Positions 43,198 to 58,600 of a stretch of DNA of 64,000 nt are shown in pieces. A program made the position numbers and the translations under genes. Below the pieces are notes generated by a model. It made no database searches. It saw only the letters and a list, made by a program, of their open reading frames with translations, and had not been told where the DNA came from. The stretch comes from Mobula hypostoma (taxonomy: Eukaryota), in NCBI RefSeq assembly GCF_963921235.1, contig NC_086108.1, positions 62,436,001-62,500,000 on the forward strand. The letters are read 5' to 3'. Numbering within the stretch: position 1 is the first letter of the stretch; every line of letters starts with the position of its first letter.

Positions 43198-44090
43198 TAA
43201 GCACAAAATAATCTGCAGATGCTGGGGTCAAAGCAACACTCACAACACACTGGAGGAACTCAGCATGTCGGGCAACATCTGTGGAAAAGATCGGTCGACG
43301 TTTCGGGCCGGAACCCTTCGTCAGGACTGTAGGGGGAAGGGGCAGAGGCCCTATAAGGAAGGTGGGGGGAAGGTGGGAAGGAGAAGGCTGGTAGGTTCCT
43401 GGTGAAAAACCAGTAAGGGGAAAGATAAAGGGGTGGGGGAGGGGAAGCAGGGAGGTGATAGGCAGGAAAAGTGAAGAAAGAATAGGGGAAAACACAATAG
43501 TAGAAGGAGGCGGAACCATGAAGGAGGTGATAGGCAGCTGGGAGGGGGGCAGAGTGACATAGGGATAGAGGAAGGAACTGTGAGGGAATTACCGGAAGTT
43601 GGAGAATTCTATGTTCATACCAAGGGGCTGGAGACTACCTAGACGGTATATGAGGTGTTGCTCCTCCAACCTGAGTTTAGCCTCATCATGGCAGTAGAGG
43701 AGGCCATGTATGGACATATCTGAATGGGAGTGGGAAGCAGAGTTGAAGTGGGTGGCTACTGGGAGATCCTGTCTGTTGTGGCGGACAGATTGGAGGTGCT
43801 CGATGAAGCGGTCCCCCAATCTGCGTCGGGTTTCACCGATGTAGAGGAGGCCACACTGGGAGCACCGGATGCAATAGATGACCCCAACAGACTCACAAGT
43901 GAAGTGTTGCCTCACTTACAAGGACTGTTTGGGGCCCACCATCTCCTTCCCACCCTCCCCCCATCTTCTTTATAGGGCCTCTGCCTCTTCCCTCTACAGT
44001 CCTGACGAAAGGTTCCGGCCCGAAACATCGACTCATCGTTTCCACGGATGCTGCCCGACCCGCTGAGTTCCTTCAGCGTATTGTGAGTGT
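43198..44090 (-). mobile_element. Penelope-like (Neptune-type) element, 5'-truncated, with an inverted pseudo-LTR
   Basis: GIY-YIG ORF 43589-43915 (VIYCIRCSQCGLLYIGET..R..EH). 43936-44090 is an inverted copy of the 3' end. Perfect 14-bp TSD TGATTCTGTGACCA at 43184-43197 / 44091-44104. Confidence 0.93.
43293..43328 (-). ncRNA. Minimal type I hammerhead ribozyme motif
   Basis: AGTC-CTGACGA-A-GGGTTCCGGCCC-GAAAC-GTC-GACC on the minus strand. Confidence 0.75.
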
Positions 44091-45154
44091 TGATTCTGTG
44101 ACCAGTGAAAGATGAACATATTTTGTTAGAGGGATACACACCATAGGGAGATACATCAGGTGCCCAGAGGCTACACTGGTTACCAGGTGAAGGGAATTTT
44201 TTATTGTAAGTGAAAGAGAGCAGCTTTCCAGCATCCAGACTGAAGTCTCACAGGGTCATTGCAATATAATGCTGGAACCTGTTAATCCATATATAAGACC
44301 ATGAAATACTAAATACCAATGTGTAAATACAAAAAGATATATTTTCCATTCCATTTGCAATTGGCAAAATTTTTTGAATGCACCCACACTAATGAAATGC
44401 ATTTTATGCAAATAACATCTGTCATTTTGGAGTTGCACATAAGTCACATTGGTGTGGTAGCTGATGGCTTCACTGAGCACTTACATCAACAGTGATAAGT
44501 GTTTTGAGAGGTTAGTGATGAAACAAATCAACTCCTGCCTGAGAAGTGATTTGGATCCGCTCCAGTTTGCTTACTGAAACAACAGGTCCACGGCATATGA
44601 CATCTCATTGGCTCTTTACTCAGCTCTAGAACATCTGGACAGCAAAGATGCATGCATGAGAATACCCTTTACTTGCTACATCTCAGCATTCCATACCATC
44701 CTCCCATCAAAACTAATCAATACATTTCAAGACCTTGGCTTCAATGCATCTTTGTTCAATTGGATCCTCGATTTCCTCACTTGCAGACCCAGTTAATTTG
44801 AATTGGCAACAGCAACTCCTCTACAATCTTCATCAGTATAGGTGCACCACAAGGCTGTGGGCTTAGCTCCCTGTTCTACTCACTTTACACTAAGCACAGC
44901 TCCAGTGCCATGATTAAGATTGCTGATGACTCCACAATCGTAGGCCGAATCAGAGGTAGTGACTGTTGTAGCGTGGATGAAATCATCGGAGAGACAGAGT
45001 CACTGGTAGATACAAAGCAGCTGCTTTATTCCACACAACAAGGTCCCTTCCTACTTATACAACAGGAATTCTGCAGATGCTGGAAATTCAAGCAACACAC
45101 ATCAAAGTTGCTGGTGAACGCAGCAGGCCAAGCAGCATCTATAGGAAGAGGCGC

Positions 45155-45190
45155 AGTCGACGTTTCAGGCCGAGACCCTTCGTCAGGACT
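45155..45190 (-). ncRNA. Minimal type I hammerhead ribozyme motif
   Basis: AGTC-CTGACGA-A-GGGTCTCGGCCT-GAAAC-GTC-GACT on the minus strand. Confidence 0.8.
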
Positions 45191-47380
45191 AACTGAAGGA
45201 AGAGTGAGTAAGGGATTTGAAAGCTGGAGGGGGAGGGGGAGATGCAAAATGATAGGAGAAGACAGGAGGGGGAGGGATAGAGCCGAGAGACGGACAGGTG
45301 ATAGGCAAAAGGGGATACGAGAGGATCATGGGACAGGAGGTCCGGGAAGAAAGACGGGGGGGGGGGGTGACCCAGAGGATGGGCAAGAGGTATATTCAGA
45401 GGGACAGAGGGAGAAAAAGGAGAGTGAGAGAAAGAATGTGTGCATAAAAATGAGTAACAGCTAGGGTACGAGGGGGAGGTGGGGCCTAGCGGAAGTTAGA
45501 GAAGTCAATGTTCATGCCATCAGGTTGGAGGTCCCCCCCATCCCTCCCCACTGATCTCCCTCCTGGCACTTATCCGTGTAAGCGGAACAAGTGCTACACA
45601 TGCCCTTACACTTCCTCCCTTACCACCATTCAGGGCCCCAAACAGTCCTTCCAGGTGAGGCATCACTTCACCTGTGAGTCGACTGGGGTGATATACTGCG
45701 TCCGGTGCTCCTGATGTGGCCTTTTATATATTGGTGAGACCCGACGCAGGCTGGGAGACCGCTTTGCTGAACATCTTCTGTCTCTGTCTCTGGAGACAGC
45801 TTATCCACTGATATCTACTATAAGCCTACTAACTCTCACAGCTATCTGGACTATTCCTCTTCTCACCCTGTCTCTTGCAAAAACGCCATCCCCTTCTCGC
45901 AATTCCTCCGTCTCCGCCGCAACTGCTCTCAGGATGAGGCTTTTCATTCTAGGACGAGGGAGATGTCTTCCTTTTTTAAAGAAAGGGGCTTCCCTTCCTC
46001 CACTATCAACTCTGCTCTTAAACGCATCTCCCCCATTTCACGTACATCTGCTCTCACTCCATCCTCCCGCCACCCCACTAGGAATAGGGTTCCCCTGGTC
46101 CTCACCTACCACCCCACCAGCCTCCGGGTCCAACATATTATTCTCCGTAACTTCCGCCACCTCCAACGGGATCCCACCACTAAGCATATCTTTCCCTCCC
46201 CCCCTCTCTCTGCATTCCGCAGGGATTGCTCCCTTCGCTACTGCCTTGTCCATTCGTCCCCCCCATCCCTCCCCACTGATCTCCCTCCTGGCACTTATCC
46301 GTGTAAGCGGAACAAGTGCTCACATGCCCTTACACTTCCTCCCTTACCACCATTCAGGGCCCCAAACAATCCTTCCAGGTGAGGCAACACTTCACCTGTG
46401 AGTCGACTGGGGTGATATACTGCGTCCGGTGCTCCCAATGTGGCCTTTAATATATTGGCGAGACCCGACGCAGACTGGGAGACCGCCTTGCTGAACATCT
46501 ACGCTCTGTCCGCCAGAGAAAGCAGGATCTTCCAGTGGCCACACATTTTAATTCCACATCCCATTCCCATTCTGACATGTCTATCCACGGCCTCCTCTAC
46601 TGTAAAGATGAAGCCACACTCAGGTTGGAGGAACAACACCTTATATTCCGTCTGGGTAGCCTCCAACCTGATGGCATGAACATTGACTTCTCTAACTTCC
46701 GCTAGGCCCCACCTCCCCCTCGTACCCCATCTGTTACTCATTTTTGTGAGAGAAAGAATGTGTGCATAAAAATGAGTAACAGATGGGGTACGAGGGGGAG
46801 GTGGGGCCTAGCGGAAGTTGGAGAAGTCAATGTTCATGCCATCAGGTTGGAGGCTACCCAGACGGAATACAAGGTGTTGTTCCTCCAACCTGAGTGTGGC
46901 TTCATCTTTACAGTAGAGGAGGCCGTGGGATAGACATGTCAGAATGGGAATGGGACATGTCTATCCACGGCCTCCTCTACTGTAAAGATGAAGCCACACT
47001 CAGGTTGGAGGAACAACACCTTGTATTCCGTCTGGGTAGCCTCCAACCTGATGGCATGAACATTGACTTCTCTAACTTCCGCTAGGCCCCACCTCCCCCT
47101 CGTACCCCATCTGTTACTCATTTTTATGCACACATTCTTTCTCTTACTCTCCTTTTTCTCCCTCTGTCCCTCTGAATATACCTCTTGCCCATCCTCTGGG
47201 TCACCCCCCCCCCCGGTCTTTCTTCCCGGACCTCCTGTCCCATGATCCTCTCGTATCCCCTTTTGCCTATCACCTGTCCGTCTCTCGGCTCTATCCCTCC
47301 CCCTCCTGTCTTCTCCTATCATTTTGCATCTCCCCCTCCCCCTCCAGCTTTCAAATCCCTTACTCACTCTTCCTTCAGTT

Positions 47381-47416
47381 AGTCCTGACGAAGGGTCTCG
47401 GCCTGAAACGTCGACT
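47381..47416 (+). ncRNA. Minimal type I hammerhead ribozyme motif
   Basis: AGTC-CTGACGA-A-GGGTCTCGGCCT-GAAAC-GTC-GACT; stem I AGTC/GACT. Confidence 0.8.
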
Positions 47417-47478
47417 GCGCCTCTTCCTATAGATGCTGCTTGGCCTGCTGCGTTCACCAGCAACTTTGATGTGTGTTG

Positions 47479-49308
47479 CCCTTCCTACTTATGTTCGTGA
47501 CACTTCTCACGCTCTTAAACTTTTTGATGATTTTAAGTTCCCTGGCCCCCACCGCTTTATTTTCACCATGGATGTCCAGTCCCTATATACTTACATGCCC
47601 CATCAGGAAGGTCTCAAAGCTCTCCGCTACTTTTTGGATTCCAGACCTAATCAGTTCCCCTCTACCACCACTCTGCTCTGTCTAGCGGAATTAGTCCTTA
47701 CTCTTAATAATTTCTCCTTTGGCTCCTCCCACTTCCTCCAAACTAAAGGTGTAGCTATGGGCACCCATATGGGTCCCAGCTATGCCTGTCTTTTTGTTGG
47801 CTTTGTGGAACAATCTATGTACCAAACCTGTTCTGGTATCTGTCCCCCACTTTTCCTTCACTACATCGATGACTGCATTGGTGCTGCTTCCTGCACGCAT
47901 GCTGAGCTCGTTGACTTCATTAACTTTGCCTCCAACTTTCACCCTGCCCTCAAGTTTACCTGGTACATTTCCGACACCTCCCTCCCCTTTCTAGATCTTT
48001 CTGTCTCTATCTCTGGAGGCAGCTTATCTACTGATGTCTACTATAAGCCTACTGACTCTCACAGCTATCTGGACTATTCCTCTTCTCACCCTGTCTCTTG
48101 CAAAAATGCCATCCGCTTCTCGCAATTCCTCCATCTCCACTGCATCTGCTCTCAGGATGAGGCTTTTCATTCCAGGACAAAGGAGATGTCCTCCTTTTTT
48201 AAATAAGGTCCTCCACCATCAACTCTGCTCTCAAACGCATCTCCCCCATTTCACGCACATCTGCTCTCACTCCATCTTCCCGTCACCCCACTGGGAATAG
48301 GGTTCCCCTGGTCCTCACCTACCACCCCACCAGCCTCCGGGTCGAATATATTATTCTCCATAACTTCTGCCACCTCCAACGGGATCCCACCACCAAGCAC
48401 ATCTTTCCCTCCCCCCCCCCGGCTTTCCGCAGGGATCGCTCCCTACGCAACTCCCTTATCCATTCGTCCCCCCCATCCCTCCCCACTGATCTCCCTCCTG
48501 GCACTTATCCTTGTAAGCGGAACAAGTGGTACACATGCCCTTACACTTCCTCCCTTACCACCATTCAGGGCCCAGACAGTCCTTCCAGGTGAGGCAACAC
48601 TTCACCCGTGAGTCGGCTGGGGTGATATACTGTGTCCGGTGCTCCCGATGTGGCCTTCTATATATTGGCGAGACCCGACGCAGACTGGGAGATCGTTTTG
48701 CTGAACACCTACGCTCTGTCCGCCAGAGAAAGCAGGATCTCCCAGTGGCCACACATTTTAATTCCACATCCCATTCCCATTCTGATATGTCTATCCATGG
48801 CCTCCTCTACTGTAAAGATGAAGCCACACTCAGGTTGGAGGAACATCACCTTATATTCCGTCTGGGTAGCCTCCAACCTGATGGCATGAACATTGACTTC
48901 TCTAACTTCTGCTAATGCTCCACCTCCCCCTCGTACCCCATCCATTATTTATTTAAATACACACATTCTTTCTTTCTCTCTCTCTTCTTTTTTCCCTCTG
49001 TTCCTCTGACTATACCCTCTGGCCATCCTCTGGGTTTTTTTCCCCCTCCCCCTTTTCCTTCTCCCTAGGCCTCCTGTCCCATGATCCTCTCATATCCCTT
49101 TTGCCAATCACCTGTCCAGCTCTTAGCTCCATCCCTCCCCCTCCTGTCTTCTCCTATCATTTCGGATTTTCCCCGCCCCGTCCCACTTTCAAATCTCTTA
49201 CTAGCTCTTCCTTCAGTTAGTCCTGACGAAGGGTCTCAGCCCAAAACGTCGACTGTACCTCTTCCTAGAGATGCTGCCTGGCCTGCTGCGTTCACCAGCA
49301 ACTTTGAT
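47479..49308 (+). mobile_element. Penelope-like (Neptune-type) element: RT, Cys-rich linker, GIY-YIG, pseudo-LTR; disabled
   Basis: TMDVQSLYT, GVAMGT..GPSYA, YIDD, FLDL, YYKPT; CKRNK; VIYCVRCSRCGLLYIGET. Stops and frameshifts at 48206-48570. Hammerhead at 49219-49254 has GAAA>AAAA. Confidence 0.93.
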
Positions 49309-51613: not shown

Positions 51614-51635
51614 CCTCACTCTTGAAGATGATAAC

Positions 51636-51833
51636 TGTGTTATTATGTGTATACATAATAAAGAACTTCAGTTCCCAATGGGCAATGCTTGTGGTTCACA
51701 TGGAACCGAAAGGATACAGGTGTTTATTGCATGAGCTCAGGCTGGAGAAATAGCTATTGCTGTAAATGTGTAAATAAAATAGTTCTCATGTTTTTACCCA
51801 CGCTGTTTGTCTTTACAAAGAATAAGCATAGCA
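51636..51833 (+). repeat. 5' LTR
   Basis: TGTGTTATTA...CATAGCA with AATAAA; direct repeat of 53991-54190. Confidence 0.9.
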
Positions 51834-51851
51834 TGGTGTCAGAGTTGGAAT
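51834..51851 (+). promoter_or_regulatory. Primer-binding site, tRNA-Leu-like (degenerate)
   Basis: TGGTGTCAGAGTTGGAAT immediately after the LTR; compare TGGTGTCAGAAGTGGGAT, complementary to the tRNA-Leu 3' end. Confidence 0.75.
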
Positions 51852-52223
51852 GATGTCAAAATACAGACAGTAAATGAATACCGTGAGTGACAGAAGAAAG
51901 AGATACAAGACAGAGCAAGACACAGCGAGTGAGGTCGGCCAAGGAGGTGGCATCGCTCGTTGTGTCCAGAAGTTCACCAAAAGATTCAGGTGGGAGAAAG
52001 CCGAAACATTCTGTTATGCACAACTGAAGTTCACCTTCACCTATGCAGTTTACCAGCAATCTAATGGATAACTGGAAACACTTCAAACAGTGATTCAATA
52101 TATATATTAGTGGCGAGTAGAGCAAGAGGGGTGGATGAAAAATTGAAAATGTCTATCTTTCTGCTTGTAATTGGTAAATATGCTTTGGACATCTATAACA
52201 GCTTTCAAATTGATGAGACAGCC

Positions 52224-52356
52224 TAAGCACCTTTAAAATTCCACTGGTCTAGATTTGACCAGGCATCACCCCTGAAGAAGATGGCAGAGTTGTCATTGAA
52301 ACACCGATTATAACCGATACCCATACCCTGCTGTAAACCTGAGAAGTGTCTATTCA
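52224..52356 (+). mobile_element. 133-bp insert in gag, probably the pseudo-LTR of a second Penelope-like family
   Basis: TSD tgatgagacagcc (52211-52223) / tgataagacagcc (52357-52369); hammerhead-like CTGAAGA-A-GATGGCA-GAGT-TGTCATT-GAAAC. Confidence 0.7.
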
Positions 52357-53148
52357 TGATAAGACAGCCCTTGCATTGGACTCTCTGATGGCAAAATTTG
52401 GGGAGTATTTTGTCCCAAGTAAAAGGGTCAGGTTAGAGAGATATAAGTTCTTTTCCTCTGACCAGAAACAAGGTGTTAGCTTTCATCAATATTTAGCTGA
52501 GCTTTTCACACTAAGTAAATCCTGTGAGTTTGGAGATTTGAGAGACGCACTAGTCAGAGACAAAATAGTTTGTGGAGTCCCAGATAATGGGCTCAAAGAA
52601 AGCTTGCTCCGTGAAAAAGATCTGATGCTGGGAAAGGCTATGAATATGTGTTGGGCAGTAGAGACCACACGAACAAAGCTGGGGCAACCAAGATAAAAGT
52701 GCACATTGTTGCTGAGGAAATGGAGGAAGTGTTTGTGGATACTCTGCAGACTGCTGGTGCTGGTACAATAGAATGGATTGTCCCAGTGACTGTGAATGAG
52801 GCAGTAATTCCATGCAAGCTTGGCACCAGAGCCCAGGTAAGTCTGTTATCCATGGAGGATTACAAGACTCTCAAAGTAAAGAGCAAGATTTACCCAGTGA
52901 AGTTAAGAGACAGGCTATACTGGAGAGAACGTTCCAGTAAAAAGGGGCTGTATAATGACCTTCAAGCACAAGGGGCTGCACCTAAAGGAACAGCTACTGA
53001 TTGTAGAAAAGTGAGTACAGCCAGTACTTATTCTGAATGCATGTGAAAGGCTCAACCTGGTAGAAAGGGTTTTTGTCATCGCTTCACAGATGGCTATGCA
53101 GCATTCATGGAAGAGCATGCAGATGTCTTTGAGGGACTCAGATGCTTA

Positions 53149-53676
53149 CTTGAGGTTACTTGAGAAACTCATTACAGCATCCATGGGAGCTCAGAGAGCT
53201 TACGCAAGGAAAGCACAATAACTCCACCTTCCATAGATATCTGTACGAGCTACAGTCAGAATGCCAGTGCTTGATCATGATGACAAAGATGCCAGTCTTG
53301 CTTCCACATCACGCAGCTTTGGTTCAACATCTGTCTCTTATCAACTTCCAGTTAAAGACTGGAAATCAAAACTACCTCCATGAACCTCTCTGAAGTTGAA
53401 GAGGAAGAGTAAAATGGAAGATGGGGTGACCACATGGAGCCAAAGGTCAGAACATCAGCAACAGTGCAAAACAAGCCAACAGGATGAGTTGCTATCTATG
53501 ATACGTAGCCAACAGAAGGCGCTCTGTGAATTGAGACAGAATTCATTGGAACTTGTGCAACAACTCACTGATTGTATGGATGTAGTCCAGGGCTCCATTA
53601 TAAGGCATATGGAGCAAATTATGGTCACACAGCAAGAACGAAACAGAAATGAACTGATAGGATCTTGGCAGAAGGA
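53149..53676 (+). pseudogene. EDC4: Intronless fragment of enhancer of mRNA-decapping protein 4, captured inside the Gypsy element
   Basis: Translates (with frameshifts) to EVT*ET...QGKHNNSTFHR...QNASA..DHDDKDASLASTSRSFGST...LPVKDWKSKLPP*TSLKLKRKSKMEDG...SEHQ...QQKALCELRQNSLELVQQL...QK*TDRILAEG. Colinear with remembered human EDC4 DITRET...QEKHKSLAFHR...QDASAEQSDHDDEVASLASASGGFGT...LPAKDWKTKGSPRTSPKLKRKSKKDDG...TEHQ...QQRELAELRHSQEELLQRL...QRRLERALAEG. Confidence 0.9.
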
Positions 53677-53990
53677 TGTGAAAAAATTGAACATATTGAT
53701 CAGAGTTCTCAGAAAGACACTAATATTAACACAGCAAGTGAAAGTAATTCACCTGTGGAGACAAATAGTGGACCAAAAAAGATCATCAAACCACCTCAGA
53801 GACTGATTGAGAGTTTAAGAGTGAATAAAGGACTGTATATGCTCATTACAATTGGTTAATGTAAATATCTGTGTTGGAAAGCTCATTACAGTTAAAGTTA
53901 ATATAAATACTTTTGTTGGAAAGGATGATTGTTTCTTGCAGGTTTGTGAGGACATAGTATTGTGTTTGTTTTTTTTCTTTAATGAGAAGA

Positions 53991-54190
53991 TGTCTTATTA
54001 TATGTGTACATAACAAAGAACTTCAGTTCCCAGTGGGCAATGCGTGTGTTTCTTGCGGAACCAGAAAGGATGCAGGTGAGCTGCTTACACACACTCGGGC
54101 TGGAGAAAAAGCCATTGCTGTGAATCTGTAATAAAATAGTTCTACCATTTTTACCCATGCTGTATGTCTTTACAAAGAACAAACCTAACA
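53991..54190 (+). repeat. 3' LTR
   Basis: TGTCTTATTA...CCTAACA, preceded by the purine tract AATGAGAAGA. Confidence 0.9.
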
Positions 54191-55213
54191 ATAGTATGTA
54201 AGATTTGTGCAGAGGGTTGATGTGGATTGGAACAAATGGCTTATGCTTGCTATCCGTCCTTCTTACTGGTTGCAGGCTCTGACTTTCTTGTGACATTGCT
54301 TGCGGCTGCACTGATACTGGAGATTAGTTCAGTTGGCGTAAATCAAACACTTCCAGGAGGAGATGAAGGCCCAGCTCTGTGTTTGATGATCTGCCCAATG
54401 AACTTGTTGTGCTGTCAAGAGCACATGGCTGCAACTGGTTGATATGGCAAAGCCAGTGATGTTTGTTTATGATAACTTTGTAGAGCACTTTCCCTATTTG
54501 TTTGATAATCTTACTTGATATCCAGTGGTCTTGCCCATTGCAATACTATCCGGCCAACACTGCGGCTCCGGGTTTGAATGACTTCACCTATCAAGGTCTA
54601 TGGCTGCCTTTATCCACCTGACCATCTTCTGTCTTGAATTTTGATACTTTGGAGCATTACATCCAACACTGTGCAGTTTTCTTCCCAAAAGCACTTCAGC
54701 TGCAGACTTCCTCTTGAGGTTTGGATGTGGTCTAATGCGCTATGTCAGCAGAAATGTATTGAGCGCCTCAGCTGATGCTTCTTCCCTTCTTGATTTCAGT
54801 AGTGACCATTTGAAGGTATCCACAACCCTCTTTGTTTGGTTGTTGCACTGAGGATGATAGGGGGGTGAGTGGATGTGGATAATTCTGTTGTTCTGGAAGA
54901 ATGCAGCGAACTGAATCGAGTGCCATTGTTGAGAAACAATTGTTTCTGGCATCACAAAATGGCTAATGATCTGCAGCAGATGTTGAGTGGTAGCCTCTGT
55001 TGTTGTTGACTTCATAGATAAGACTTTTGGGCATTTGGAAAAGGTGTCAACCAGGACAAGGGAGGTACACCCATTGATTGGGCCAGTGAAGCTAATATGT
55101 ACTCGACTCCAAGGTCTGGTGGCCTGAGGTCATGGTTGGGGATCGACTCTACTTGGATTCTTTGCCACCAAAGAGCACTGAGTATTCTGTTTGCACGCAG
55201 ATGTGATGTCTTA

Positions 55214-55668
55214 GTTTCACCAAGTTGATTCCAGAGATGAGGGGGTCAGACTATGAGGAGAGATTGAGTAGCCTGGGTCTGTACTCACTGGAATTCAGAA
55301 GAATGAAAGGAGATCTTGTAGAAACATAAAATTCTGAAAGGGATAGATAAGGCAGAGGCAGGAAAGTTGTTTCCACTGATAGGCAAGATTAGAACTAGGG
55401 GACATAGCCTCAAGATTGAGGGGAGTAGATTTAGGACGGAAATGAGAAACTATTTTTCTTAGAGGGTGGTGAATCTGTGGAATTCTCTGCAAATATATTT
55501 AAGACAACTTGGATAGATCTTTTCATAGTAGGGGAATTAAGGGTTATGGGGAAAAGGCAAGTAGTTTGAAATGAGTCCATGGCCAGATCAGCCATGATCT
55601 TATTGAATGGCAGAGCAGGCTTGACAGGACAGATGACCGACTCCTGCTCCTACTACTTACGTTCTAAT
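55214..55668 (+). mobile_element. CR1 3' fragment inserted in the Gypsy integrase region
   Basis: ttcaccaagttgattccag...gtggtgaatctgtggaattc...ctcctgctcctac. Confidence 0.88.
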
Positions 55669-58600
55669 GTTATATTCTTCATCTGTGCCCAGCCAGTACA
55701 TTGCGTTCCTTGCCAGAACTTTCATTGAATTGATTTCCAGGTGACTATGCTGTATTTGTTTCAATACTTTTGGTTGAAGTGTTCATGGAATCACTATCCT
55801 GTCTCCAATCAATAGGCAGGAATCCACAGTTGATAGCAATGCATGAAGTTGTTCGATGGATATGACATCTTCCTCAACCTTGATTGGCCATCTGTCAATG
55901 TGGTATTTGGAAATACACTGAAGAAGACGATCTGCTGTTGTTTCTACTCTTGAGCTTGTCAACCGTGGCTGGAAGATTTTCAGCAGCATCCGATACTACA
56001 CAATGGCCTTCACAATCAATTGAAATCACAGCCACAACTGCGTCTTTGCTTTCAGTAACCTGCTGATTCATAAGTCAGGAGAGGGTATCTGTCTGACTAA
56101 GTTGACATGAACTTGATTTCAAAATCATAGGCTTGATTTCAAATCATCATTGCCCACATTAGTAGATGGTTAGCTATATACATGGGATCCCTTTCTTAGA
56201 CTCAAAGATGGACAACAGTGGCTTGTGATCAGTAAGGAGAGTAAGGTGTTTGCCGTAAAGCATCTTGTGGAATTTCTTCATGGAGAAGATGATTCCAAAA
56301 GTTTCCTTCACTATTTGTGCAAAGTTCCTTTCTGCTGTATGCATGACAGCTTTTTCAGAACCATCAGGGAAGATGTAGGATATAATAGATCACAGCAGGA
56401 TGCATCTCATCATCAATGATTGGCAACACTAGATTCAAATGTGTCTAGGGAAGGTCAGATGACAGCATATGATCAAAAGCCTCTTGACATTATTTGGACC
56501 ATTTGCATGTGGCACCTTGTTGAGCAGGGCATTGAATGACTCCCTCAGCTGGTGCCTGGCTGGGAGAAATGCTGAAACATGACTGATCATGCTCAAAAAT
56601 GATCATAAAGTGCTGACATCTGATGGTGGAGGCATCTTTAAGATAATAGTGTTTTTTTTTTCAGGATCTGGGCAAAGACCGTGCTCATCCGTGATGAATC
56701 CCAGATACATGAGGAGGCTGCATTTTTCTGCCTGACGATGCAATCCAAATTCTTGTAGTTTGGTCAGCACGTGGTCCAGGTGTTGGCATAGTTGTGTCTG
56801 ATCCCTCCTCTTCACACTGATGGCATGGAGGTAAATGACATCATCATCAATACCAATCAGCATGGTGTCAATAAACTGTTGGGAAATTGAGGGAGCCACC
56901 TTTATCCTGAAAAGCAGGCAGATGATGGAAAACACCCCTTTACATGCTGTAATAGTGAGAAGCTCCTGTGAATTATCTGTCACCTCTACCTGGAGGTAGG
57001 CTTCAGCCAAGTCCAACTTCACAAAGTTGTGACCACTTTTCAATTTTGTGAAGCGTTCTGCAGGTAGCAGCTACTGGTGTGTCTCTAGAGCCACTCTGAG
57101 ACCAGTTGAGAAATCTGCACACAACCTCACTGTAACATTGGCTTTCTTGGCAATGACTGTTGGAGCAGCCCAACATAAGTAGTTGACAGCTTTGATAACA
57201 CCAGCTTGTTGCAGGCCAGCTAGCTCTTGCTCCACGATTGGTATTGTACTGTGTTTTGTGCTAGTCTTTTGGGACAGAGGACTAACTTTTTGTCTGGATG
57301 GAGATTGAGTTATGCTTGCAGTTTGGTGCAGCAACATAAACCTTCTGGAAACTCTGCTGCATAGCGTTACTGCAGTTGTTGTTGTCCGGTCTCACATACT
57401 AATGGCGGTATGGTGTCAACATGATTTGAATAGCCAATGTCTTTGTACAGACCTCAACCAGAGTGATGCTTTAGAGACCATCCAGTCAATGCCAAGGATA
57501 TTCAGTTCTGGCTGGTCTGTTGGGTAACACATACTTTTGACTTGGTTATCCTTCAGCATCACCATGCAGTGAGCTCGACAATCAGCTGAGACGTTCCACT
57601 TGATGCACTCCAGGCAGAGTGATGAGTTGATTTGACTGCTGGTCACCAAAGGGCCCGCCACATGTGTTTGGAGATGATAGTGATGTTTGATGCCATATGG
57701 AGTTGTAGTTGTAGATTGTTGATAAATAAATTGACATACCATCTCCTGGGGGGTGAAGTCAACTTTGATCGTGATCATTATCTCCTTGTAGATTTTGATG
57801 GCTTTTGAAACTTCTCGTGCTTGTGTTTTACTGGCCTAGAACACAGTGAAGGATGGCAAAAGCCTTCTTTGTGACCATTGCGTTGGCATTTGCTGAAAAT
57901 GTTTTTCTTGTATTGGAAGTTTCTTGCGTAATACCACGCACCACTGTTCCACAAGCTGTGCTTAGTCACCTGTGGACCTGCTGAGTGATGATGTCGGGGT
58001 TACTGGAAAATCTTTTTTACATCTGTTCTGTAGGTTGAACTCCAAGGCTGCTCACAGTAGTCCAGATTATGCCTCACCAGTGTCTTATACAATTTCAACT
58101 TAACATCCCAACTCCTGTACTCAGTACATCGATCTATGAAGACCAATGTGGCAAAAGCTTTCTTCATGACCTATCTACCTGTAATACCACATTCAAGGCA
58201 TTATGACTCTGTATTCCCAGATCCCTCTGTTCTACCATACCCCTCAGTACCACTCACCATGTAAGACACACCCTGGTTGGCCCTCCCAAAATGCAACACC
58301 TCATACCTAACTGTGTTAAATTCCATCTGCCATTTTTTTAACCCATTTTTCCAGCTGGTCCAGATCTCACTGCAAGAAGTGATAGTCTTCCTCACTGCCC
58401 ACTACACCCCAAATCTCGGTGTCAAACGCAAATTTGCTGATCCAGTTTACCACATTAACATCCAGATCATTAATACAGATGACAAACAACATGGGACCTT
58501 GCACTAATCCCTGTGGCACACCACTAGTCACAGGCCTCCAGTCAGAGAGGCAACCATCTACAATAACTCTTTGGCTTCTTCCGTGAAGCCAATATCTAAC

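What the first reader, a model, noticed from the sequence alone, without database searches (positions are those of the whole stretch)
53107..53810. Both EDC4 junctions are in frame with pol: a former protease-EDC4-integrase-tail fusion ORF
Seen: at the 5' junction, ATG GAA GAG CAT GCA GAT GTC TTT GAG GGA CTC AGA TGC TTA CTT | GAG GTT ACT TGA GAA ACT reads directly from the Gypsy pre-RT motif (DVFEGL.CL) into EDC4 (cf. PDITRET). At the 3' junction, ...ILAEG | CEKIEH...KKIIKPPQRLIE continues in the same frame into the integrase tail. The TGA stops in T*E, P*T and K*T fall on EDC4 arginine positions, consistent with later CGA>TGA decay. Two in-frame junctions are expected by chance only 1 time in 9. 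Inference: the ancestral chimera had an open frame and could have made a protease-processed EDC4 fragment, or openness was selected to avoid nonsense-mediated decay. This copy is now dead: it has frameshifts, and the gag zinc knuckle also appears deleted near 52680.
Basis: partly seen in the sequence, partly recalled or inferred. Interest (0 to 1): 0.75.

Follow-up and report, generated by a model that had tools for sequence, protein, structure and literature searches.

The report
Gypsy family carrying in-frame EDC4 piece
This is one dead copy of an old jumping-gene family in a fish genome that carries a spliced piece of the host mRNA-decay gene EDC4, joined in frame at both ends, in place of its own copying enzymes; the family spread to at least 92 places, likely with borrowed enzymes, and nothing shows that the fused protein mattered.

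Summary
Both junctions are in frame. The insert is six spliced EDC4 exons (187 codons) replacing about 2.4 kb of RT-RNaseH-integrase, with 9-of-10 and 7-of-8 nt microhomologies to the parental Gypsy. At least 92 dispersed copies exist (390 search candidates), with distinct 5-bp target duplications and LTR divergence near 0.20. No frameshift is shared by more than 5 of 80 copies, and stops are mostly CpG decay. So the replicating template had one open Gag-protease-EDC4-tail frame of about 640 codons. Selection on it is not shown: two in-frame joins arise by chance about 1 time in 7, and the copies give no internal branch to test. The scan found such captures before on other DNA of this genome. 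I tested four: all join in frame, but one SUDS3 subfamily multiplied with 13 shared stops. Verdict: a new member of a known kind (LTR-mediated retrocopy), with a testable hint that in-frame captures spread better.

The parts
51631..51635 (+). left target-site duplication candidate (3 of 5 bases match the right flank 54192-54196)
   Evidence: sister copies show perfect 5-bp duplications
51636..51833 (+). 5' LTR (TG...CA)
   Evidence: K2P distance to the 3' LTR 0.207
51834..51845 (+). primer-binding-site-like sequence directly after the LTR (tRNA identity not tested)
   Evidence: sequence
51980..52698 (+). gag remnant (start approximate); private 132-nt insertion at 52224-52357; private deletion of about 200 nt (zinc-knuckle region) at 52674-52680
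52699..53147 (+). protease and pre-RT spacer of the Gypsy pol, frameshifted in this copy
53148..53157 (+). 5' junction: 10-nt tract shared by parental Gypsy and host EDC4 (9 of 10 identical), same codon phase
53149..53688 (+). spliced EDC4 mRNA piece: end of one exon, four whole exons, start of a sixth (561 nt, 187 codons in the host); here 3 stops and 4 deletions
   Evidence: gene identity
53686..53693 (+). 3' junction: 8-nt tract shared by host EDC4 and the parental integrase tail (7 of 8 identical), same codon phase
53689..53820 (+). integrase C-terminal tail (43 codons) up to the family's stop position; the stop is lost in this copy
53981..53990 (+). polypurine-tract-like run before the 3' LTR
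   Evidence: sequence
53991..54191 (+). 3' LTR

Best explanation
This is a dead copy of a Gypsy LTR retrotransposon family in which a spliced piece of host EDC4 mRNA stands in place of RT, RNase H and most of integrase, joined in frame at two short shared tracts, likely by two template switches during reverse transcription. The chimera kept LTRs, primer site, purine tract, gag and protease. It was likely copied in trans by enzymes of the intact parent family (inferred: it has no RT or integrase, yet copies have new target duplications). Its template carried one open frame of about 640 codons (shown by the absence of shared breaks). The frame was most likely open because both switches happened to fall in phase and the burst came soon after capture (inferred). 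A weak filter that favours in-frame captures is possible, but it is not required. No role for the EDC4 peptide is shown.
For: Insert matches six exons of the single host EDC4 locus without introns; these exons lie between Ge1_WD40 and EDC4_C exons on one strand. Parents with RT-RNaseH-integrase between the same flanks are in the genome (11 of 30 loci lack EDC4), with about 2.4 kb at the place of the insert (L173, L174). Microhomologies of 9/10 and 7/8 nt. 92 distinct chimeric loci among 121 matching loci; 390, 352 and 340 first-look candidates. Of 41 copies examined, 16 had both LTRs whole: median K2P 0.204, range 0.17-0.33; three show perfect and three show 4-of-5 five-base duplications, all different. 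Largest shared indel 5 of 80; stops at four of the five most-hit CGA codons are matched by CAA in similar numbers (36/26, 32/21, 31/26, 24/21, 19/23), as expected from CpG decay after insertion; 0 of 80 inserts intact. Private changes have N/S about 2.7, as for neutral decay. Synonymous host-family differences 11, against 12.3 per copy since insertion. Chance of two in-frame joins 0.13-0.15. A SUDS3 subfamily (5 of 30 loci) multiplied with 13 shared stops in its reading phase.
Against: The first join is in frame in 5 of 5 amplified capture families that I tested; chance 0.006-0.009 before ascertainment. 3' joins to the integrase tail are also in frame in the RBM25-labelled and rabaptin families. 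High-frequency host-family differences are 11 N to 11 S against 2466 to 918 among private changes (Fisher p 0.027). That is purifying selection somewhere between host and template; I assign it to the host lineage, but it is not polarised. Host synonymous sites may change more slowly than dead repeats, which would leave more time on the template branch.
Confidence: 0.65

Rival explanations
1. Same origin, but an RNA-level filter decided which captures multiplied. Chimeras whose Gag-protease frame runs on through the cargo to a stop near the 3' LTR escape decay or stay coupled to translation and packaging, so amplified families are enriched for in-frame joins whatever the cargo.
For: One phase is free of shared stops across gag or pol and the host piece in the EDC4, SUDS3-labelled, rabaptin, RBM25-labelled and myosin-labelled families (30 copies each for the last four). 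In yeast a chain-terminating mutation next to the Gag start destabilises Ty1 RNA (PMC4974528, passage read).
Against: The antisense piece in the SUDS3 family has 13 shared stops, the first 36 nt in, and still multiplied (5 of 30 loci). About 7 of 29 rabaptin-family copies share a 2-nt insertion in a gag A-run (counted by eye), and 90% share a stop in the tail. The four families were picked from earlier AI notes, partly retrieved with the word 'frame', so ascertainment favours in-frame cases. The element has no intron after the insert, so junction-dependent decay would not apply (own knowledge).
Confidence: 0.27
2. The EDC4 peptide itself helped the element. The Gag-protease-EDC4 fusion, or a fragment cut by the protease, brought a nuclear localisation signal and the start of the helical self-association region, and steered particles to P-bodies or the nucleus.
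For: The frame was open. The piece holds a basic KLKRKSKK stretch. Human EDC4 has a bipartite NLS at 910-927 and a helical, self-binding C-terminus from 935 (PMC9987799, passages); that the piece covers this boundary rests on my recall of the human sequence. Ty3 particles assemble at P-bodies (PMC4974528, passages).
Against: No constraint on the insert can be assigned to the element branch. No intact copy among 80. The piece lacks both Pfam domains of EDC4 and ends about 29 kb of gene before the EDC4_C exons. Unrelated cargoes multiplied as well or better (735, 740, 2558 and 724 candidates). No cleavage site was tested.
Confidence: 0.06
3. A LINE-made EDC4 processed pseudogene inserted into a Gypsy copy, then spread by segmental duplication or gene conversion.
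For: A 2026 preprint attributes non-mammalian retrocopies mainly to LINEs (10.64898/2026.06.26.734816, passages).
Against: The piece is internal to the coding sequence, with no poly(A). It replaces about 2.4 kb rather than interrupting pol. Both ends lie in microhomologies. Homology between copies stops at the LTR ends, with different target duplications.
Confidence: 0.02

Closest known systems
LTR-mediated retrocopies (pseudo-LTR retrotransposons) of animals, Tan et al. 2016, PMC5131818 (12 passages and section 8 read; supplements not read)
   Same: Internal ORF part replaced by a spliced mRNA piece, microsimilarity at both switch points (median 6 bp there), both LTRs kept, further rounds of retroposition as a non-autonomous element.
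   Different: [quoted passage not shown] Here at least 92 copies exist and the cargo is in frame with the element's own Gag-protease and tail.
Maize Bs1 and HERV-K/FAM8A1 capture (seen only as cited in Tan et al.)
   Same: Host mRNA pieces inside an LTR element.
   Different: Bs1 carries pieces of three genes and is cited as possibly coding; FAM8A1_r is a single untranscribed case. The papers themselves were not read.
Other host-capturing Gypsy families of this genome (SUDS3, RABEP1/SH3KBP1/SLU7, RBM25, myosin; earlier AI notes)
   Same: Pol core replaced by host coding sequence, hundreds of candidates, first join in frame (tested).
   Different: Their enzyme and LTR regions gave almost no DNA match to this family's parent, so they are independent captures. 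Only the rabaptin label was confirmed by Pfam; the other gene names come from the notes.

Membership tests
LTR-mediated retrocopy (Tan et al. 2016) | Insert derives from spliced mRNA (introns absent) | tested here: met
   six exons joined, five introns absent
LTR-mediated retrocopy (Tan et al. 2016) | Insert replaces part of the element's ORF rather than interrupting it | tested here: met
   about 2.4 kb RT-RNaseH-integrase of parents L173 and L174 absent
LTR-mediated retrocopy (Tan et al. 2016) | Microsimilarity at both switch points | tested here: met
   9 of 10 and 7 of 8 nt
LTR-mediated retrocopy (Tan et al. 2016) | Both LTRs present; no poly(A) tail or LINE-type hallmarks at the insert | tested here: met
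Non-autonomous LTR retrotransposon family | Dispersed copies with their own target-site duplications and no RT or integrase | tested here: met
   92 loci; 3 perfect and 3 near-perfect 5-bp duplications among 16 copies with both LTRs
Gypsy/Ty3 (Metaviridae-like) parent | Order protease-RT-RNaseH-integrase | tested here: met
   parents align in this order to P0004 and P0002, which carry RVT_1, RT_RNaseH, Integrase_H2C2 and rve
Gypsy/Ty3 (Metaviridae-like) parent | Clade placement by RT phylogeny (Mag-like is a recalled resemblance) | not tested
   no RT tree was built
Functional chimeric retrogene | At least one intact copy under purifying selection | tested here: not met
   0 of 80 near-full inserts are free of stops and frameshifts; the 80 are a part of up to about 390 candidates
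Functional chimeric retrogene | Transcribed and translated | not testable with these tools
   no RNA holder listed

The most novel reading that the evidence does not exclude
In these fishes, Gypsy elements that capture host mRNA multiply to hundreds of copies mainly when the cargo extends their Gag-protease frame. Reading-frame continuity would act as a filter on non-autonomous spread. The EDC4 family would be the sharpest case, a retroelement polyprotein carrying a nuclear-localisation and helical piece of the P-body scaffold at which such particles assemble.
Probability: 0.2. Interest if true: 0.72.

Novelty: new member of a known kind. Interest (0 to 1): 0.4.

Why it matters
It is a clean vertebrate germ-line case of retrovirus-style gene capture in which parent, host gene, both crossover tracts and at least 92 descendants survive in one genome. 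Such families inflate retrocopy counts: a 2026 preprint lists SUDS3 and SLU7 among the top retrocopy parents of cartilaginous fishes and credits LINEs for non-mammalian retrocopies, while families noted here with those cargoes spread as LTR elements. With several independent captures in one genome, the question whether an open frame helps a non-autonomous LTR element spread becomes directly testable.

Tried and rejected
Homologue search with a window piece of the insert: 0 of 6 candidates scored. No outgroup EDC4 was obtained, so the 22 host-family differences are not polarised. Pfam on 7 window fragments: no family over its cut-off. Subfamily structure in the insert: 0 of 5307 variant pairs significant. 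In the protease-spacer region 3 of 729 pairs were significant and three weak clades appeared, one with a parent (79 of 94 rows kept): a hint of several templates or of recombination with parents, too weak to use. Re-crossover inside the 5' tract: the parental base occurs in 4 of 80 copies, equal to the background rate of 3.8%, rejected. Expression: no RNA holder listed; run X1 is only guessed to be RNA, so it was not used. tRNA scan of the window: 0 genes. Look-up of earlier findings by sequence: nothing. Pfam confirmed 1 of 4 other cargo labels (Rabaptin, E 8e-29). Literature: six searches listed no paper on EDC4 capture or on frame selection in non-autonomous LTR elements. I saw only listings there, the library lacks most subscription papers, and supplements of Tan et al. 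and of the preprint were not seen. Rows dropped: 29 duplicate loci and 12 of 92 copies with large insertions or truncations; 25 of 41 copies without two whole LTRs.

Full report
What is in the window. An element of 2.55 kb lies at 51636-54191, between two LTRs of about 200 nt. It holds gag, protease, a 540-nt foreign piece, a short integrase tail and a purine run. The genome has 3.48 Gb. Earlier notes call it ray-like; I did not test this.

The foreign piece is spliced EDC4. Ge1_WD40 exons lie at G000:C55 21.42-21.44 Mb and EDC4_C exons at 21.35 Mb on the same strand. Between them, six exons match the insert in order: the last 41 nt of one, four whole exons of 102, 153, 34 and 187 nt, and the first 44 nt of a sixth. 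No intron sequence is present. The piece is 561 nt, or 187 codons, in the host.

The parent survives. Searches with the two flanks returned copies without EDC4 (11 of 30 loci; many). Whole parents align to natural Gypsy proteins in the order RT, RNase H, integrase. In L173 and L174 about 2.4 kb stands where the chimera has the insert.

Junctions. At the 5' side parent and host share 9 of 10 nt in the same codon phase (window 53148-53157). CEKI is decayed RERN, and the join lies in a tract with 7 of 8 nt shared, again in phase (53686-53693). The tail frame agrees with the ends of natural proteins P0001 and P0002. Of 80 copies, 64 keep the 5' register and 46 the 3' register over 60 nt; the rest have scattered indels or lack an anchor.

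A family, not one copy. The insert search gave 390 candidates, of which 40 were scored at 76-81% identity to this copy. I hold 92 distinct loci and analysed the 80 with near-full inserts. They are a median 85.5% identical to the host and 81% to each other, at most 88%. Sixteen of 41 copies had both LTRs whole, with median K2P 0.204; this copy has 0.207. Three copies show perfect and three show 4-of-5 five-base target duplications, all different. So the copies arose by retrotransposition. Contigs of organisms B (X6) and F (X16) bridge the 3' LTR and flank of this very insertion, with 9 of 404 and 11 of 152 other letters. The insertion therefore predates those splits.

Was the frame open? Yes. 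No indel in the insert is shared by more than 5 of 80 copies. The common stops sit on five CGA codons where TGA and CAA are about equally frequent, as CpG decay after insertion gives. In the EDC4 phase no stop column reaches 60% over about 410 codons upstream, against 28 and 30 in the other phases (41 copies). Downstream the first shared stop is tail codon 44. The template thus carried one frame of about 410 + 187 + 43 codons. All 80 inserts are now broken. This copy's knuckle deletion, 132-nt insertion and four insert deletions are private.

Was it selected? For this family alone it cannot be shown. Chance microhomologies between 1,089 nt of host coding sequence and 22,467 nt of phase-known parental pol are in frame 36-39% of the time (45% for exact 8-mers), so two joins give about 0.14. 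Private changes are neutral, with N/S about 2.7 outside 30 CpG-type sites. Differences carried by at least half of the copies are 11 N and 11 S (Fisher p 0.027), so purifying selection acted somewhere between host and template. Each copy gained 12.3 synonymous changes after insertion, as many as separate host and template. The simplest reading puts these changes on the host branch and the burst soon after capture. This is inferred and not polarised. The insert shows no linked variants, so there is no internal branch on which to measure selection.

Other captures as a test. Earlier AI notes report further host-capturing Gypsy families in this genome. I took four and ran the same phase test on 30 copies each. 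One phase is free of shared stops across the element-to-host join in all four. The 3' joins to the tail are also in phase in the RBM25-labelled and rabaptin families. Five of five first joins have a chance of 0.006-0.009. The families were chosen from notes, partly with the word 'frame', so this is an upper bound on the surprise. Against a strict requirement: the antisense piece in 5 of 30 SUDS3-family loci has 13 shared stops in the SUDS3 phase, the first 36 nt in. About 7 of 29 rabaptin-family copies share a 2-nt insertion in gag, 90% share an early stop in the tail, and roughly half of the RBM25-family copies differ by one base in a T-run of the tail. An open frame to the end is therefore not needed for spread, though it may help.

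Mechanism. Shown: spliced origin, replacement of the pol core, shared tracts, in-phase joins, dispersed copies with new target duplications, one open ancestral phase, neutral decay. Inferred: co-packaging of EDC4 mRNA, two template switches, copying in trans by parental enzymes (chimera-parent identity 80.3% in the protease region, like 80.2% among chimeras), and a short time between capture and burst. Untested: translation, protease cleavage and any effect of the peptide.

Comparison. The structure meets the features of LTR-mediated retrocopies in Tan et al. 2016 (PMC5131818; 12 passages and section 8 read). It differs in scale and in the fusion to the element's own frame. Human EDC4 has an NLS at 910-927 and a helical C-terminus from 935 (PMC9987799; 12 passages), and Ty3 particles assemble at P-bodies (PMC4974528; 12 passages). 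These make the peptide hypothesis attractive but give it no support here. A 2026 preprint (8 passages) names SUDS3 and SLU7 among the top retrocopy parents of cartilaginous fishes, does not mention EDC4 in its main text, and credits LINEs. Six searches listed no paper on this capture (listings only; supplements not seen).

Verdict. The open ancestral frame is shown; selection on it is not. New member of a known kind; interest 0.4, carried by the copy number and by the testable frame pattern across families.

Noticed in passing
window 52224-52357: A 132-nt insertion private to this copy. Similar sequence lies inverted in the tail of copy L003, and many contigs of related species cover it: probably a small mobile repeat.
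   Followed up: no
window 54200-55250 and 55700-56500, minus strand: Remnant of another LTR-element pol directly downstream of the element (read from sequence and translation; label recalled).
   Followed up: no
window 43200-49300: Cluster of direct and inverted repeats up to 440 nt with 99% complementary arms, likely nested copies of a young repeat.
   Followed up: no
L254, L256, L236, L241, L249 (SUDS3-labelled family): Shared insert of about 950 nt between 9-nt repeats. It has many stops on the element strand and only one shared stop column in one phase of the opposite strand, so it is an antisense coding piece.
   Followed up: yes
L258-L287 (rabaptin family): 90% of 29 copies share an early stop inside what looks like a duplicated purine-tract piece in the integrase tail; about 7 share a 2-nt insertion in a gag A-run.
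   Followed up: partly
L318-L347 (myosin-labelled family): Copies are 95-97% identical, much younger than the EDC4 family, with one stop-free phase over at least 570 codons. The youngest capture family seen and the best one for a selection test.
   Followed up: partly
L061, L094: Parent-family copies in which gag or the pre-RT region is followed closely by the integrase tail, without EDC4: possible internal-deletion derivatives.
   Followed up: no
EDC4, rabaptin and other cargoes: The captured pieces look rich in charged helical or coiled-coil sequence (translations; Pfam Rabaptin). This may reflect purine-rich similarity to pol or a real bias.
   Followed up: no
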